A stretch of DNA of 59,966 nucleotides, the filler included, from Asterionella formosa (lineage: Eukaryota), in the NCBI GenBank assembly GCA_002256025.1. It is 7 parts of 7 records of this genome, joined end to end, with 100 filler letters (N's around TTAATTAATTAA, not from the genome) between each part and the next. Parts side by side here need not be neighbours in the genome. Positions count along the whole stretch, not along the records: positions 8,605 to 17,103 come from NKIB01012135.1; 6 more parts are not named here. One strand, written 5' to 3'. The position numbers were made by a program, and so were the translations under genes. Below, one piece after another: positions 8,605 through 45,826 of this stretch (position 1 is the stretch's first letter; each line of letters starts with the position of its first letter). Below the pieces are notes generated by a model. It saw nothing but the letters and a program-made list of their open reading frames with translations, was not told the origin of the DNA and searched no databases.

Positions 8605-9154
8605 CGTTAAGTATTCCTTGAAAGTTCTTGTAGCACGCGTATGCGAGAAACTTCGCTTTCCACATGTGCCATTTAGCATCTTGCCCATCGAATGTCGGCA
8701 ACCTCACTGACGTGTCTTCGTCACTTCCCATCGTTCCTGAGTAGCCTGTGGCCTTAAAGTGAACGCTTTAAAGCGTGTTGAAAGGTCTCGTACTCCTTCC
8801 CGTCTGACGGGTTCCTCTTTCGTAGAACTTACCTGCTATACCACTAGTATTGTTATCTTCTTTCTGCTGCTAGCCTTCGTGCTAGTTTTCGCTATTGACC
8901 TTACTCTGTCAATTCTCACTGTTTCTTAATTATAAGATTAAACTAAAACTAAGTTTCAATCCCATTCATCACACTTCGAGAACCTGTTCTTCGTGTTCCC
9001 TTTTCGTTGATGTAAACCTTCTTCTGATTGATCTAAGACATCAATCTCGTTAGCAAGCTTCTTGACATGGGAACGCACCATTTGACTCATTGGACTATAA
9101 TCGAGTCCACAGTCCTTGTGACTCATTATAGCCATTGATGCTATATTCTTGACA
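8605..9154 (-). mobile_element. Ty1/Copia retrotransposon 5' end: LTR (8776-9154, 379 bp) plus start of gag (8731 to the gap)
   Basis: The LTR reads TGTCAAG...TTCAACA on the minus strand and differs at 4 positions from 33704-34082. It is followed by MGSDEDTSVRLPTFDGQDAKWHMWKAKFLAY, a typical Copia gag N-terminus. Confidence 0.92.
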
Positions 9155-33265: not shown

Positions 33266-33703
33266 AACTTGGACACCAATGAAATCTGTTTGGTGTTGGT
33301 TGACAGCTTTTATTGAATTGTGACATACTTGCCTCTCATACAACTTCATTAATTAGATTTGCGACGTTAAGATTTCTATCCTATCCGAGATAAAATAGAA
33401 TCGTCCGACTTGGATGACAATATTATGTCTCTGGCTCGTCGGTATGCGAATGTTTCGAGGAATACACAATAGACTTCCGGTATTTCTATAGCGCTTGATG
33501 TAGTCTAACAACACCAAGGGCGAATCTTGAATTGATCCACTACTGAAAATGTTGATTTTTTCTTACATAAATACGTACGTAATAGATTGCAGACTGAATA
33601 ACGGTTTCCCGGCTTTTAAGACGGGCGGAGAGTGTCTACCCGTTAGTATCAGGTACCAGGGTACCCTGGTACCCTACCAGTAGTTATCCTGGTACCTGGG
33701 GTA

Positions 33704-34280
33704 TGTTGAAAGGTCTCGTACTCCTTCCCGTCTGACGGGTTCCTCTTACGTAAAACTTACCTGCTATACCACTAGTATTGTTATCTTCTTTCTGCTGCTA
33801 GCCTTCGTGCTAGTTTTCGCTATTGACCTTACTCTGTCAATTCTCACTGTTTCTTAACTATAAGATTAAACTAAAACTAAGTTTCAATCCCATTCATCAC
33901 ACTTCGAGAACCTGTTCTTCGTGTTCCCTTTTCGTTGATGTAAACCTTCTTCTGATTGATCTAAGACATCAATCTCGTTAGCAAGCTTCTTGACATGGGA
34001 ACGCACCATTTGACTCATTGGACTATAGTCGAGTCCACAGTCCTTGTGACTCATTATAGCCATTGATGCTATATTCTTGACATCCTCCTCGTTACCATGT
34101 TCAAGAAGTTCTAAAATTGTACCACTCAGCACGGGTCCAGATAACCTTGTAAAAATCTGCTCTTTGACATTCTTCGTCAAAATGTCTGCTGGATTGTTTT
34201 CTGATCTTAGAAAAACAATATGCAACTCACCCTCATCTATCATGTTCTTGACATGATGAAACTTAATATCAATGTGTTTT
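33704..34280 (-). mobile_element. Ty1/Copia retrotransposon 3' end: RNase H, polypurine tract and 3' LTR (33704-34082)
   Basis: KHIDIKFHHVK...LRSENNPADILTK is the Copia RNase H signature. The PPT AACGAGGAGGA lies directly before TGTCAAG. The LTR is near-identical to 8776-9154. Confidence 0.95.
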
Positions 34281-41040: not shown

Positions 41041-42267
41041 CTGGTAGAAAGATCCGAAAATATGAAAATATAGTATTTTGTGATTGTTTCCAGAGCATTT
41101 CAGGATGCATATATTTATGTTGACAGTACAAAATCACTTGATATCCATGGTGCGAACTATCGTGCATGTTTAAATTGGGATGTTGCACACAACTGCACCA
41201 TAATAATTGTCCTCCTGAAGAAAAGCGTTAAAGATACCCATATTAATTTGGAATATAAAACTTTAAATAATAATGTATATGAAGATAAAATGTCGGCCCA
41301 GCTAAACAAGGTAATTTTATTTTCTTTCGATGTGCCTCACTCAACATTTTTGTGGTCGTTTGTCTCAACAACTGGAACACAGCATCGATTGGGCGTCAAG
41401 ACATCCTTTATGTAGATGCATAAAACAAACGACTTGTTCATAGCAAATATCGTCATATTGCTAAAATTGAAAAGTTTCTAGTACAAAATGTAAGATTACC
41501 CCATTATAGTGGTCTAAGCAGTTCATAGTGGTCTTAAGCAGTTTTTGACTGTGTACCAGCAGGTACCGCCCACTCACACACTACTTATCTATTTATTGTC
41601 CAGTTCATGCTTTGTGCGTGCGTCATGCTAGTAAACCACCAGCTGCACTACCTTTCACTACCTACGGCAAAAATGGTAGTATTGGGGGTAGAATTAATTG
41701 TCAATAGTGGCACAGTACCAGCACCGGTATCAACAACGTCATATGACATGCTGGTGTAGTTACAGGAAATGAAAGAGGAATATGGAATATTTGGCAACCA
41801 CTTCGTGTATTTTCGTGAAGTTAAATAATTTCTATTTCGTCATACCGGTATTAATTGCCCTTGTCCCATCAGTCACAGTTTAAGGTTCCTGCATTTGAAC
41901 CCCTAGGCAAAAATTAAAATATTGCTTAGGGTTGCCGAAATTCCCTGGAACTAAGAACTTTTATGTGCTAGTTTGAATATCAATGATTCCGTTTGAAAAA
42001 TTCAAATGAGTGGAAATTTGCGCGTACGTATATAGATTCCATTTCAAATGCATAAAATATGTAAAGATAGATTCTTCATCGCTGAATGTTTTATATTGCT
42101 ACTCTACCGATAGTATACCTACTCGTATCATAAATATGTTTCACATGCACGACCCGGCGGCTGCAAAATATATTTGAATGTGCAAACTATCGGTACTAAG
42201 GGACTGGTTAGCGTGCACTACCATTTACTATGACGAATGATGATCAGTTACCTGGAACCGGTAGGTC

Positions 42268-42371
42268 TACCCGGTTCTCGGTATTCCTACTCCGTACGGA
42301 TTCCGGTATACGGGTAAACCTACCCGGTACTCGATATTCCCACTCCGTACGGATACCGGTATACGGGTAGG
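42268..42371. repeat. Tandem pair of 52-bp units, each bounded by TACCCG...CGGGTA
   Basis: CTACCCGGTTCTCGGTATTCCTACTCCGTACGGATTCCGGTATACGGGTA is followed by a near-identical copy. Confidence 0.8.
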
Positions 42372-42734
42372 ATCAGCCAACACCCAAGAAAATGCTTCAT
42401 GTGTATCCAGTGTGGCCGGCGTGGGATTGCACGACCTCGCAAACCGTGCCAATCGAACGGATGTAAGGATAACCAATCAGAATATGATTATTACAGCGGG
42501 CAATTACATTGGAACTTTTTGTACACGAGATTTTACGACTACAAATTTTAGCACAAGACTACCATTCCGATGATGACGTTTCGGCGATTAGTGATTCTGA
42601 TTCCGACGTTTGGGTGACCGTTGAAAAGGCCGATATTGTCGAATTTTTGGACGACGATAGCTCAACGTTGGCAGGGTTTGAAGAAGAGTTAAATACATAG
42701 GAAATCTTCATATAGCCCCAGAAGTTAACTTTCG

Positions 42735-42855
42735 GCGAGAAACTGCAGAAAGGAACTTCGGTTTTTTTACTAGGCCAAATAAACGAGTTAGCCCGGTAAA
42801 ATCCACTATTTTCAGCATAGTTAAAAAACCGAAGTTCCTTTCTGCAGTTTCTCGC
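42735..42855. repeat. Long inverted repeat (33-bp perfect arms)
   Basis: GCGAGAAACTGCAGAAAGGAACTTCGGTTTTTT ... AAAAAACCGAAGTTCCTTTCTGCAGTTTCTCGC. A homologous hairpin lies at ~45506-45622. Confidence 0.9.
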
Positions 42856-42955
42856 NNNNNNNNNNNNNNNNNNNNNNNNNNNNNNNNNNNNNNNNNNNNT
42901 TAATTAATTAANNNNNNNNNNNNNNNNNNNNNNNNNNNNNNNNNNNNNNNNNNNN

Positions 42956-43663
42956 TCGTGAAGCTTCCACAATTGCTGATATGTATTGTTCTTGACGTTT
43001 ACATAATGCCACAAGTCTGGTCATATCATTAATTTTCGATTCAAGAATTATCTTCTTCATAGTCTTCCTGAATGATCCCTCAACGGAAAATAACATCATT
43101 TGATATTCGGTTAGAAGGTCCAACGCTTTTTGGTACTCCCCATTGGCTCTGTAAACATCCGAAATATTTTCAACAATACCGACAACAAACAAAACATGTG
43201 TAGCTAATTTGTCGACGATACCAGCATGATTGATGATTTGCAATGCACGAATCATTCTGATTTCGTTCTCCAACCATGGCATAACATCCAGTTCGTAAAT
43301 CTGCATAGCTTCATCGTAATCTCTTAGCTGTGAGTGGAAGAAGCCTATTTGCGAGGATATTATTGCGACCGACGACATGTCGCTCTCGTCTGACGACATG
43401 GTTGATTTGTACGCCTGGCAATGATTCAAGAGCAAGTCCCAGCTGCCAGTAAAATGCAAGACTACATTGAAGCACGGTCTATCTCCAGGGAACAAAAGAG
43501 CATAGCACACCACAAAGACTGCCATAAGGAGGCTCACAACGAAAAGGATCCTTCCTATTGACATTTCTCGCGCAAAAAAACGACCAAGAAAGTGAAATGT
43601 GAGAACAGTAGCTATACCGGAGCATGTTATTACATCAGTGGTTTGAATTATACTAGGCATCAC
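42956..43663 (-). CDS. Hypothetical protein with two TM segments and TPR-like helices (3' end cut by spacer)
   Basis: Uninterrupted ORF with hydrophobic segments, plus QIGFFHSQLRDYDEAMQIYE and NISDVYRANGEYQKALDLL. Confidence 0.55.
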
Positions 43664-44097
43664 TGTGCCGGTACCCTGGTACTCCCTGGTACTCCCTGGT
43701 ACTGGTACCTGGTAATATGATCAAATTCAATTTAATCCACGACTAGACTAATCCGAGTTGATTACCTTGTTCGTCCATCAAGGATGTCCCCATGATACAG
43801 GAAACAAAAATACCTTGAATTGTTGGCAATTTTGGTACGTTTTCGTTTGGTTTTCATCCTCAAAATCCAGCAAGTTGCGGTAATTTTGCTTATTGTGCTA
43901 CGTACGTCGTCGTCCGGGCAATATTGAGATTCCACTTGCAAGTTGATACATGTGTAACTCTTTGACGGCCGTTTAATTAATCAACCGGCCGGCTTGTTGT
44001 TCCTAATCATATTTAGATTAATCTTATTTTAAGCCTAAAAAATTGAGACCAATCTGTTTTGCTTATTCTGCCATTTGCTTCCATTGATTTTGCATTA

Positions 44098-45287
44098 GGT
44101 TGCGGCCCCGCAGTTACACATCGCGAGGTCTGTTTTCTTCCAAAATAATTTTATTTTGTACTTTAATCTACACAGTACGTACAACTAAATAAAATAGTTC
44201 AAGGAAAAATTAGCTTTCACCAATACGACCACTTTGCATATGCTTAGATACAGTCATTCCTCGACTTATGGGTATGATCTATATTCAGATATGGGAAGGA
44301 CCTAATTTCTGGAGAGAAGTGGCAGTTATCCCTCTTGGAATCGTGACTATCCAAAAAATAGTCAAAAAAGGGGGCCATCAAGTTTTTAAAAAAATCTACG
44401 AGGGATAACTGTCACTTCTCTGCAGAAGTAAACTCCTGACGTTATAGGGTACACGGCTATCTATTTCATTCTTCATGAAACCCCGTAGATGTAGAGCAAT
44501 CCTCCTCCAAAAAGTCGACCCGATCGGCTTTTTCAACAGTCGCCAAAATATTGGAATCAGAATTTGTACGTGCAAAAACACTCTCGTAAACTTGGAGTCT
44601 TGCGTAGGTATGTTTCGCTGAATAATTCTCAGTCCGAAAAGACTCCAGGGTAAGTTCCCGCGTCACTACACATATTCTGATTGGTTGAATTGAATTTACT
44701 TACCTGCTCCAGATTCGCTGAAGTATCCCGGTCTTGTAAAATCTCACGAGCCACACTTGAACCACAAGTGTTAGATGTACTGAATCCTGGTTGGTAAAAT
44801 CAGTACCGGTACTACCAGTAGTAAATCCTGTCCTCCATCATGACGAACCAATATTGTGTACTACCTAGTGCTCCGGGTACCGAAATACCATTACTCTGGG
44901 AATCATGTACTGGTACCAGGGTACTGATTCACACAGCAGTATATACCTTTATGCGTGGAGTGATATTGAAACTACATTCAGCAACGAAGATTCAATATAA
45001 ACGTATAAACACGAGCCATGAGCATACATGTTGGTACTCCAATTTATATATGTGTTTTGGCGTTGAGTAAAATTATGTCTACAAGCAGCAACGTGGAAAT
45101 AGTATAAATGTTTGAATATCATTTTTTCATGGAATTCTATCAATCTGGCGCCGATTCCTATTTAATTCAAATATTCAAATGGACCCTCGAATCGTGGGAA
45201 TTCATAGTAGAAAACTCCCTGTTCCACGCCGTTTTTACAACCCTAGCGATATTTTCTACGAACTAGGGTTAAGCCGGGGCCGCAAAC
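44098..45287 (-). mobile_element. Kolobok-related non-autonomous element with TIR G(G/T)TTGCGGCCCCG
   Basis: Left end GGTTGCGGCCCCG at 44098; right end CGGGGCCGCAAAC|TTAA at 45287. Internal homology, inverted, to 41900-42720. Confidence 0.55.
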
Positions 45288-45291
45288 TTAA

Positions 45292-45826
45292 GGTTGCTGC
45301 ATTTGAACCCCTAGCTCGAGGTAGGGTTATAAAACAATATTGAGTCAGACTAATCAAACACATACTCTCCACATATAAATCAAATATGTATAACGCTCAA
45401 CGGAGCTATCACCAATACACACCCTTTCCATACACTTACATACAGTCTTCGGACAAAGTAGGGGTGTAGGTCCACTGTATATATCGTCAGTATATAGGAT
45501 CTGGTCAGAAACTGCAGAAAGGAACTTCTTTTCTTAACCATGCTAAAAGGACTCGAAAATTGGGGGGAAATCTGTTTATTTGGCATAGTATAAAAACCGA
45601 AGTTCCTTGCTGCAGTTTCTCGCCAGAAGTTATATATTGATACTTTTTGAAAGTTATCTATGTATCTAAATCGCCGTCAGAACCAGCCAATGTTTAGCTA
45701 CTGTATATTGGTGAAAGCTCCGTTTAGCGATACACATTTATGTTTTACTCATACGAAGTGTGTGTTTGAGTACTCAATATTATTTTTTTAACCCTACCTC
45801 TAAACTAGAATTGAAATGCAGGAACC
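45292..45826. mobile_element. Kolobok-type MITE, 535 bp, TTAA TSD
   Basis: TTAA|GGTTGCTGCATTT...GAGGTAGGGTTA..AATATTGAG at the left end and CTCAATATT..TAACCCTACCTC...AAATGCAGGAACC|TTAA at the right. GG...CC termini with a TTAA TSD fit Kolobok; piggyBac ends in CC...GG. Confidence 0.78.

What the first reader, a model, noticed from the sequence alone, without database searches (positions are those of the whole stretch)
8740..8790. Copia element with a perfect 14-bp palindrome where the tRNA primer-binding site should be
Seen: on the element strand the LTR ends ...TTCAACA and continues CGCTTTAAAGCGTTCAC. ACGCTTTAAAGCGT (8763-8776) is a perfect palindrome overlapping the last LTR base. There is no TGG-initiated PBS, and gag starts about 45 nt later. 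Known: most LTR elements prime on a tRNA 3' end (TGG...); exceptions use tRNA fragments or self-priming (Tf1). The LTRs are ~99% identical, so decay is an unlikely explanation. Inference: non-canonical priming (hairpin/self-priming, dimer-mediated, or a tRNA fragment). This is one of the best candidates for new biology in the window.
Basis: partly seen in the sequence, partly recalled or inferred. Interest (0 to 1): 0.72.

Follow-up and report, generated by a model that had tools for sequence, protein, structure and literature searches.

The report
Palindrome replaces Copia primer site
A young jumping gene of a diatom-type Copia lineage, and its distant relatives, carry a short perfectly self-pairing sequence exactly where such elements normally bind a host tRNA to start copying themselves, which suggests that they prime on their own RNA; a similar site is described in fungi, but its mechanism is untested.

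Summary
Confirmed. On the minus strand a 379-bp Copia 5' LTR ends at 8776. It is followed directly by CGCTTTAAAGCG, and gag starts 44 nt after the LTR end. The conserved unit is this 12-mer starting at +1; the outer A/T pair is incidental. The two window LTRs (98.9% alike) belong to different insertions.

Of 33 related gag clusters (median identity among representatives 28.5%), 28 have a perfect palindrome at +1. There are 12 different sequences of 10, 12 or 14 bp, changing in mirror image even at the centre. Background is 16 of 8312 sites.

The eight own-genome sites tested pair no better than shuffles with 87 host tRNAs (set incomplete). The window's site has no Tf1-type partner in its LTR. 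Other Copia families of this genome have ordinary half-tRNAiMet sites.

Best reading (0.55): tRNA-independent priming by the palindrome RNA, most likely between the two co-packaged genomes. This is inferred, not shown.

Closest known: the Conserved Hairpin Site of fungal GalEa elements (PMC5445492), mechanism unknown. This lineage lacks GalEa's motifs and often the second arm. The scan noted the same feature before, in this genome and in others.

The parts
8776..9154 (-). 5' LTR, 379 bp, TGTCAAG...TTCAACA; TATA-like TATAA at 8934
   Evidence: end fixed by copies that diverge after ...TTTCAACA
8764..8775 (-). 12-bp perfect palindrome CGCTTTAAAGCG at +1 to +12, in the position of the primer-binding site (14 bp, 8763-8776, if the last LTR base and +13 are counted)
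8751..8759 (-). Imperfect second copy of the palindrome (+17 to +25); can pair with +2 to +10 as a 9-bp hairpin, like CHSeq2 of fungal GalEa; not conserved lineage-wide
   Evidence: fold -9.0 kcal/mol, 0 of 200 shuffles as good in a 34-nt window chosen around it, but 31 of 200 in a 76-nt window
8605..8731 (-). Start of gag (42 codons, then a contig gap)
   Evidence: longer copies match PF14223 and zf-CCHC
33704..34082 (-). 3' LTR of another copy of the same family (4 differences in 379); followed by host DNA, not by the palindrome
34083..34090 (-). Polypurine tract GAGGAGGA, directly abutting the 3' LTR
34091..34280 (-). [quoted passage not shown]
   Evidence: read; motif in L305

Best explanation
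The palindrome is the primer-binding site, and the primer is the palindrome itself, taken from the element's own RNA instead of a host tRNA. Most likely the two genomic RNAs in the particle pair through their palindromes. One is cut just 3' of the palindrome (by analogy with the RNase H cut of an RNA duplex in Tf1). Its new 3' end sits on +1 of the partner and is extended into the partner's U5. The new DNA is complementary to the primer's own R-U5 RNA, so RNase H could trim the primer back to the palindrome. Plus-strand strong-stop DNA then copies the palindrome and anneals to the minus strand. One half would thus be re-templated from the other in each cycle, which would explain the mirror-image changes. 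Shown: position, perfect symmetry, compensation, absence of a tRNA or LTR partner. Inferred: dimer, cleavage, priming, mirror copying.
For: The palindrome starts exactly at +1 in 29 of 29 representatives (chosen for having it), from 28 of 33 lineage clusters; background 16 of 8312 CA sites. Twelve different perfect palindromes of 10, 12 or 14 bp; length changes only by even numbers; the centre is AT, TA, GC or CG, always self-complementary. A hairpin loop would be free to vary there. Changes occur inside supported clades, e.g. CGCTTGCAAGCG, CGTTTATAAACG and CGTTTTAAAACG in one clade at 98/96 support, and 12 against 10 bp in sisters at 99/96. Predicted self-dimer -10.0 to -21.1 kcal/mol against hairpin 0 to -2.6. 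No tRNA duplex better than shuffles for 8 own-genome sites, while a control half-tRNA site scored 1 of 40. No Tf1-type partner in the window LTR: longest Watson-Crick run 4 nt, 87 of 100 shuffles as good. Complete element L363 (identical 599-bp LTRs, 5-bp target duplication) carries a quite different palindrome at +1. Established knowledge: the 3' end of the minus-strand primer defines the right LTR end, so the bases at +1 are where a primer must sit.
Against: No biochemical or read evidence: only assembled contigs were available for the runs. The nuclear tRNA set lacks several isoacceptors, and other small host RNAs were not tested. In the window family and the 14-bp group the palindrome is predicted to fold with a downstream arm, which would compete with dimer formation. 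Two of 33 clusters have only a one-mismatch version and in three the junction was not found. Single non-mirrored variants exist among copies: 9 of 31 copies of the sister subfamily differ, only 1 of them as a perfect mirror; most look like CpG decay after insertion. Symmetric DNA would also suit a dimeric protein.
Confidence: 0.55

Rival explanations
1. The palindrome is a dimerisation signal, a strand-transfer site or a binding site for a dimeric protein (Gag nucleocapsid, integrase), and the primer is something else not yet identified (another small RNA or a protein).
For: Short palindromes drive genome dimerisation in Ty3, Ty1 and retroviruses (PMC11381356, passages). Perfect symmetry including the centre fits an intermolecular duplex whatever its purpose.
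Against: Those dimer signals come in addition to a PBS and lie elsewhere (PMC5445492 discussion passage). Here the palindrome fills +1 to +12 and leaves no other primer site. A protein site would not be expected to tolerate 12 sequences and three lengths.
Confidence: 0.2
2. Intramolecular fold-back: the RNA is cut at +12 and the palindrome snaps back on itself, or the longer hairpin with the downstream arm (the CHS model) presents the primer.
For: The window family folds a 9-bp hairpin with a downstream imperfect copy; similar arms exist in the 14-bp group and L375. Mirror copying during strand transfer could keep the centre symmetric even if it were a loop.
Against: The palindrome alone gives hairpins of 0 to -2.6 kcal/mol. 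Pairing with the downstream 45 nt beat 95% of shuffles in only 5 of 28 representatives, and not in the window family (0.12). Pairing with U5 is no better than shuffles.
Confidence: 0.15
3. An internal tRNA fragment primes, as with half-tRNAiMet in copia and Ty5, and the symmetry is a by-product.
For: tRNA-Pro(AGG) can pair with +1 to +10, ending at the anticodon stem, with three G:U pairs. The D arm of tRNA-Ile(AAT) can pair over 8 nt from +1 with one G:U. Half-tRNAiMet sites exist in other families of this genome.
Against: Best duplex -15.9 kcal/mol, matched or beaten by 31 of 40 shuffles. A genome-wide wobble-tolerant pattern gave 16 matches (control 17), of which one is a tRNA gene. A tRNA primer would hold the site constant, yet the families of this genome in hand carry five different palindromes.
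Confidence: 0.07
4. Decay or chance: a broken PBS that happens to be symmetric.
For: Palindromes of 14 bp or more occur 11 times in the window.
Against: 29 of 30 close copies keep it; 28 of 33 clusters against 0.19% background.
Confidence: 0.02

Closest known systems
[quoted passage not shown] 2017, PMC5445492; passages, section 10, supplementary files 4 and 5 read)
   Same: No tRNA PBS; a palindrome directly after the 5' LTR that extends to the last LTR A; an imperfect inverse copy may follow; TG...CA LTRs, 5-bp target duplication; mechanism unknown. The cores TGATCA and CTAATTAG recur in two of the palindromes found here.
   Different: Other host group and other RT motifs. 10 to 14 bp instead of an 8-bp core with A/T; 12 sequences instead of essentially two; the A/T pair and the second arm are dispensable here (10 of 29; a minority), so the palindrome and not the hairpin is the conserved unit.
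Tf1 self-priming (Schizosaccharomyces pombe; as reviewed in PMC7175516, passages)
   Same: tRNA-independent; the primer would be the element's own RNA, released by a cut beside an 11-12 bp RNA duplex.
   Different: Tf1 is Ty3/gypsy and pairs the first 11 bases of its transcript with a non-palindromic PBS; here the LTR holds no such partner.
Half-tRNAiMet priming (copia, Ty5; recalled) and FunCo1 internal tRNA-Lys site (PMC5445492)
   Same: Copia elements with a non-TGG site directly abutting the LTR.
   Different: Those sites match a tRNA anticodon arm; other families of this genome do so over 12 nt, this lineage does not.
Palindromic dimer-initiation sites of retroviruses, Ty1 and Ty3 (PMC11381356, passages)
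   Same: Short self-complementary sequence in the 5' region able to join two genomic RNAs.
   Different: They are usually 6 nt, lie away from the LTR end and accompany a tRNA PBS.
CoDi6 group of diatom Copia elements (Maumus et al. 2009, PMC2806351, passages; supplements not readable)
   Same: Diatom relatives (Fragilaria, Fistulifera), tandem CCHC knuckles as in CoDi6.2-6.5, PR-IN-RT-RH order.
   Different: No CoDi6 reference sequence was at hand; the paper's main text does not mention primer-binding sites.

Membership tests
Ty1/copia LTR retrotransposon | Gag, protease, integrase, RT, RNase H in this order; TG...CA LTRs; PPT | tested here: met
   Pfam order Pol_BBD, rve, SH3, RVT_2 in L305 and gag_2 plus zf-CCHC in L022; LTR ends and PPT
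Canonical tRNA-primed element | TGG-initiated site complementary to a tRNA 3' end | tested here: not met
   Site begins CGC; plant-type outgroup loci do show TGG sites
Half-tRNA-primed Copia (copia/Ty5 type) | 10 nt or more complementary to a tRNA anticodon or D arm | tested here: not met
   87 tRNAs, best no better than shuffles; wobble pattern search; nuclear set incomplete
Tf1-type self-priming | PBS complementary to about 11 bases at the transcript start inside the LTR | tested here: not met
   Window LTR: 4 nt Watson-Crick, 6 with G:U; at most 7 nt Watson-Crick in 29 representatives, 4 of which had under 150 nt upstream
Tf1-type self-priming | RNase H cleavage generates the primer | not testable with these tools
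   needs biochemistry
Fungal GalEa CHS | Palindrome directly after the 5' LTR, no PBS | tested here: met
Fungal GalEa CHS | 9-bp CHSeq1 of type CTGATCAGT / CTAATTAGT | tested here: not met
   Window site is CGCTTTAAAGCG; none of the 12 palindromes is a CHSeq1, two share its core
Fungal GalEa CHS | Inverse-complementary CHSeq2 downstream, forming a hairpin | tested here: inconclusive
   Present in the window family, above 95% of shuffles in 5 of 28 representatives; also blank for 5 GalEa families in the paper's table
GalEa clade | Protein motifs (fungal KSRLVI, DITQAY, QTDD, CQPEA; metazoan KARLVA, DVKAAY, TRPDI) | tested here: not met
   L305 has KARLVV, DVEAAF, YVDD, DSPDC, two C2C4H4C knuckles against the table; KARLV and YVDD are shared with metazoan GalEa
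GalEa clade | RT phylogeny with GalEa references | not testable with these tools
   No reference obtained (searches found 0)
CoDi6 (diatom Copia) | Tandem CCHC knuckles in Gag (CoDi6.2-6.5) | tested here: met
   criterion
CoDi6 (diatom Copia) | RT groups with named CoDi6 elements | tested here: inconclusive
   Groups with Fragilaria and Fistulifera proteins, apart from L306 and plant elements, but no named CoDi6 sequence was in the tree

The most novel reading that the evidence does not exclude
A third way to start LTR reverse transcription, beside tRNA priming and Tf1 fold-back: the two packaged genomes pair through a palindrome at the LTR edge and one primes the other, so that dimer signal, primer and primer-binding site are one sequence that corrects itself to its own mirror image in each cycle. 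It would be used by a large, active diatom-type Copia lineage and, probably independently, by fungal GalEa.
Probability: 0.4. Interest if true: 0.85.

Novelty: new variant of a known kind. Interest (0 to 1): 0.6.

Why it matters
How LTR elements without a tRNA site start reverse transcription has been open since the fungal CHS was described in 2017. This lineage adds 12 covarying palindromes. They show that symmetry and position, not sequence or a downstream hairpin, are conserved, and they give natural variants for a direct test. The family is abundant, and contigs of RNA libraries hold its sequence, so native intermediates may be obtainable. If dimer priming holds, it is a new priming mode that bears on the idea that self-priming preceded tRNA priming (PMC3601003, passages). 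In practice, annotation pipelines that keep only elements with a tRNA PBS (as in PMC7466962, passage) would tend to discard this lineage (inference).

Tried and rejected
One element with two LTRs: rejected (flanks, order, gaps). 14 bp as the functional unit: rejected. tRNA 3' end, tRNA half, D arm: no better than shuffles; nuclear iMet was found later and pairs over only about 6 nt, read by eye. Tf1-type LTR partner: not found; 3 of 29 representatives (L105, L116, L369) had duplex energies better than at least 39 of 40 shuffles but Watson-Crick runs of only 5 nt. Hairpin centred on the LTR boundary: no better than shuffles in 29 representatives. GalEa reference for a tree: two motif scans found nothing. 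Two pattern searches for window-subfamily copies were mis-specified and returned 2 copies and 14 mostly older copies; no count is drawn from them. Reads: four runs were contigs only, so no starts, ends, strand or level; no fold-back joint was listed. Literature search returned nothing relevant. Supplements of PMC2806351 and the slide files of PMC5445492 could not be read; they may hold junction sequences of CoDi6 or extended CHS data.

Full report
1. Observation. On the minus strand a 379-bp LTR (9154 to 8776, TGTCAAG...TTCAACA) is followed by CGCTTTAAAGCG TTCACTTTAAGGCC and, 44 nt after the LTR end, by a gag ATG at 8731; the contig breaks after 42 codons. ACGCTTTAAAGCGT at 8763-8776 is a perfect palindrome. 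The LTR end is fixed by the second window LTR and five further own-genome loci that diverge into host DNA exactly after TTTCAACA; six more loci simply end there. The second LTR (33704-34082, 4 differences in 379) is the 3' LTR of another insertion: it follows an RNase H end and the tract GAGGAGGA, and the flanks do not form a target duplication. The window holds 11 palindrome centres of 14 bp or more, so size alone is not remarkable.

2. The family. A DNA search of the own genome gave 326 candidates, 40 scored, 30 fetched. Of these 30, 29 carry the intact 12-mer and one has C to T at +1; they were selected by overall likeness to the query. An unbiased pattern with the site left open found 31 copies of a sister subfamily: 22 unchanged, 9 altered, mostly by C to T or G to A, one of them into another perfect palindrome (counted from the rows). 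Polyprotein L305 has the Copia domain order and two CCHC knuckles. Named relatives are from Fragilaria and Fistulifera. Tandem knuckles mark CoDi6.2-6.5 in Maumus et al. (PMC2806351, passages); membership is likely but not shown.

3. Relatives. Of 150 own-genome gag matches I held the top 30 as loci and fetched 100 further stretches; the rest were not fetched. Clustering at 80% gag identity gave 40 clusters. I set aside 2 plant-type clusters with TGG sites and 5 without a 5' end. Of the remaining 33, 28 have a perfect palindrome starting at +1 after the LTR's CA in at least one copy. Two have a one-mismatch version (L187/L128, L131). In three the junction was not seen (L343 and L346 start close to gag; L318 unresolved). 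Background: 16 of 8312 other CA sites are followed by a palindrome of 10 bp or more. The 29 representatives (one cluster counted as two subfamilies) carry 12 different palindromes: CGTTTAAACG; CGCTTTAAAGCG, CGTTTATAAACG, CGTTTTAAAACG, CGCTTGCAAGCG, CGTTTGCAAACG, CGATTATAATCG, CGCTAATTAGCG, TACTTCGAAGTA, TACTTTAAAGTA; CGTTTGATCAAACG, CAAATAATTATTTG. Every pair position varies, the centre is AT, TA, GC or CG, and the outer A/T pair is present in 10 of 29. Median gag identity among 28 representatives is 28.5% (323 of 378 pairs aligned). The LTR end is independently confirmed for four own-genome families and for L363, a complete element with identical 599-bp LTRs and the target duplication TAGAT; elsewhere it is inferred from the ...ACA end. 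On the gag tree the changes fall inside supported clades. On the RT tree (33 rows; 15 candidate names, mostly near-duplicates, were left out) the palindrome elements form two clades at 99 and 100 support, joined at only 85, with the diatom proteins and apart from the half-tRNA element L306 and the plant elements.

4. Primer tests. tRNA: 87 distinct tRNA genes were recovered, with 36 anticodon types on contigs taken as nuclear; nuclear Phe, Tyr, Cys, Glu(TTC), Arg(ACG), Ser(TGA), Leu(CAA), Ile(TAT) and iMet were not in the set. For eight own-genome sites the best duplex was matched or beaten by 14 to 40 of 40 shuffles (31 for the window); the control site of L306 by 1 of 40. A genome-wide pattern allowing G:U over +1 to +10 ahead of a T loop gave 16 matches (reversed control 17); only tRNA-Pro(AGG), with three G:U pairs, is a tRNA. 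Nuclear iMet was then found and matches the site of other LTR families over 12 nt, so the test can detect a real half-tRNA site. Tf1 type: no partner in the LTR. Hairpins: the window leader folds a 9-bp hairpin with an imperfect downstream copy, but such pairing beats 95% of shuffles in only 5 of 28 representatives, and pairing with U5 in none of 29.

5. Mechanism. From established knowledge, the primer's 3' end sits at the LTR edge, and plus-strand strong-stop DNA copies the primer to rebuild the site. A self-complementary site at +1 can act as its own primer: the last base of one RNA's palindrome pairs with +1 of a partner RNA, so extension begins at the last LTR base. Predicted dimers are 10 to 21 kcal/mol stable, hairpins 0 to 2.6, and the centre stays symmetric. 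Copying one half from the other would explain mirror changes, even-numbered length changes and the lack of family-level G:U pairs (my detection required perfect symmetry, but only two clusters fell short of it). The needed cut at +12 has a precedent in Tf1, where RNase H cleaves beside an 11-bp RNA duplex (PMC7175516, passages). All of this step is inference; I give it 0.55, against a dimer or protein site with an unknown primer (0.2), fold-back (0.15) and a tRNA fragment (0.07).

6. Comparison with what is known. Donnart et al. 2017 (PMC5445492; passages, section 10, supplementary files 4 and 5) describe fungal GalEa elements with no PBS and a palindrome that includes the last LTR A. They propose that it replaces the PBS and state that no model fits. 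Bivalve TRIMs have a comparable unexplained site (PMC6934838, passages). The present lineage works like the CHS but is not filed as GalEa: CHSeq1 and the fungal motifs are absent, and no reference could be put in a tree. In nine library searches (listings, plus passages of seven papers) I found no report of such a site in diatom elements; the library lacks most subscription journals, and Repbase and GyDB were not searchable. Earlier AI notes of this scan report the same feature in this genome (e1-7563253), in other genomes (e1-7528241, e1-7504256) and in microsporidia (e1-7177258, e1-7177844); I saw them after my own comparison, and they are not independent support.

7. Verdict. Real, conserved and not tRNA-matched. 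A new variant of a described but unexplained kind of site, with the richest covariation that I could find on record and a sharp, testable model. Interest 0.6; 0.85 if dimer priming is shown.

Noticed in passing
window 8776-8912, run X16: Summed contig depth is 300,000-830,000 over the last ~140 nt of the LTR against 377 over gag and 64-2,600 over most of U3. The edges lie near the LTR end and just downstream of the TATA-like box, the extent expected of R-U5 or strong-stop DNA. The DNA run X9 is flat and RNA run X15 shows no such rise. Contigs cannot show level, ends or strand, so this is only a lead for raw reads.
   Followed up: no
5' flanks of 25 own-genome copies among L001-L030: Read by eye, base -9 before the LTR is G in 18 and C in 6 of 25, and five flanks begin GGTA at -10: a possible target-site preference. 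The window's 3' LTR sits beside the 22-bp palindrome at 33652-33673.
   Followed up: no
L306, L410, L411, L413, L414; tRNA-iMet in L412, L415: Other LTR families of this genome carry GGTTATGAGCCC, a 12-nt match to the anticodon arm of the nuclear initiator tRNA (half-tRNA priming); used as a positive control.
   Followed up: yes
L339, L340-L342, L344, L355: A second, different palindrome (AGGCCT-centred, or a 12-mer in L339) follows the first directly.
   Followed up: no
L234, L241, L245, L248 and many rows: An abundant tRNA-derived repeat with A and B boxes but no cloverleaf, probably a SINE.
   Followed up: no
L319 (viral contigs record of 120,672 bases): An RT of this Copia group, close to the Fragilaria protein, lies at the end of a contig filed as viral; contamination or insertion not resolved.
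   Followed up: no
G000:C12569:5125-5794: Two LTR-palindrome-gag junctions in tandem, 394 bp apart.
   Followed up: no
window 42257-45700: Tandem 53-nt repeat and nested inverted repeats of 41-171 nt, probably ends of a DNA transposon, crossing a scaffold gap.
   Followed up: no
L141, L191, L192: Three contigs share a one-sided C-to-T variant of their family's palindrome that would still pair as G:U in RNA; whether they are independent insertions is unknown.
   Followed up: no
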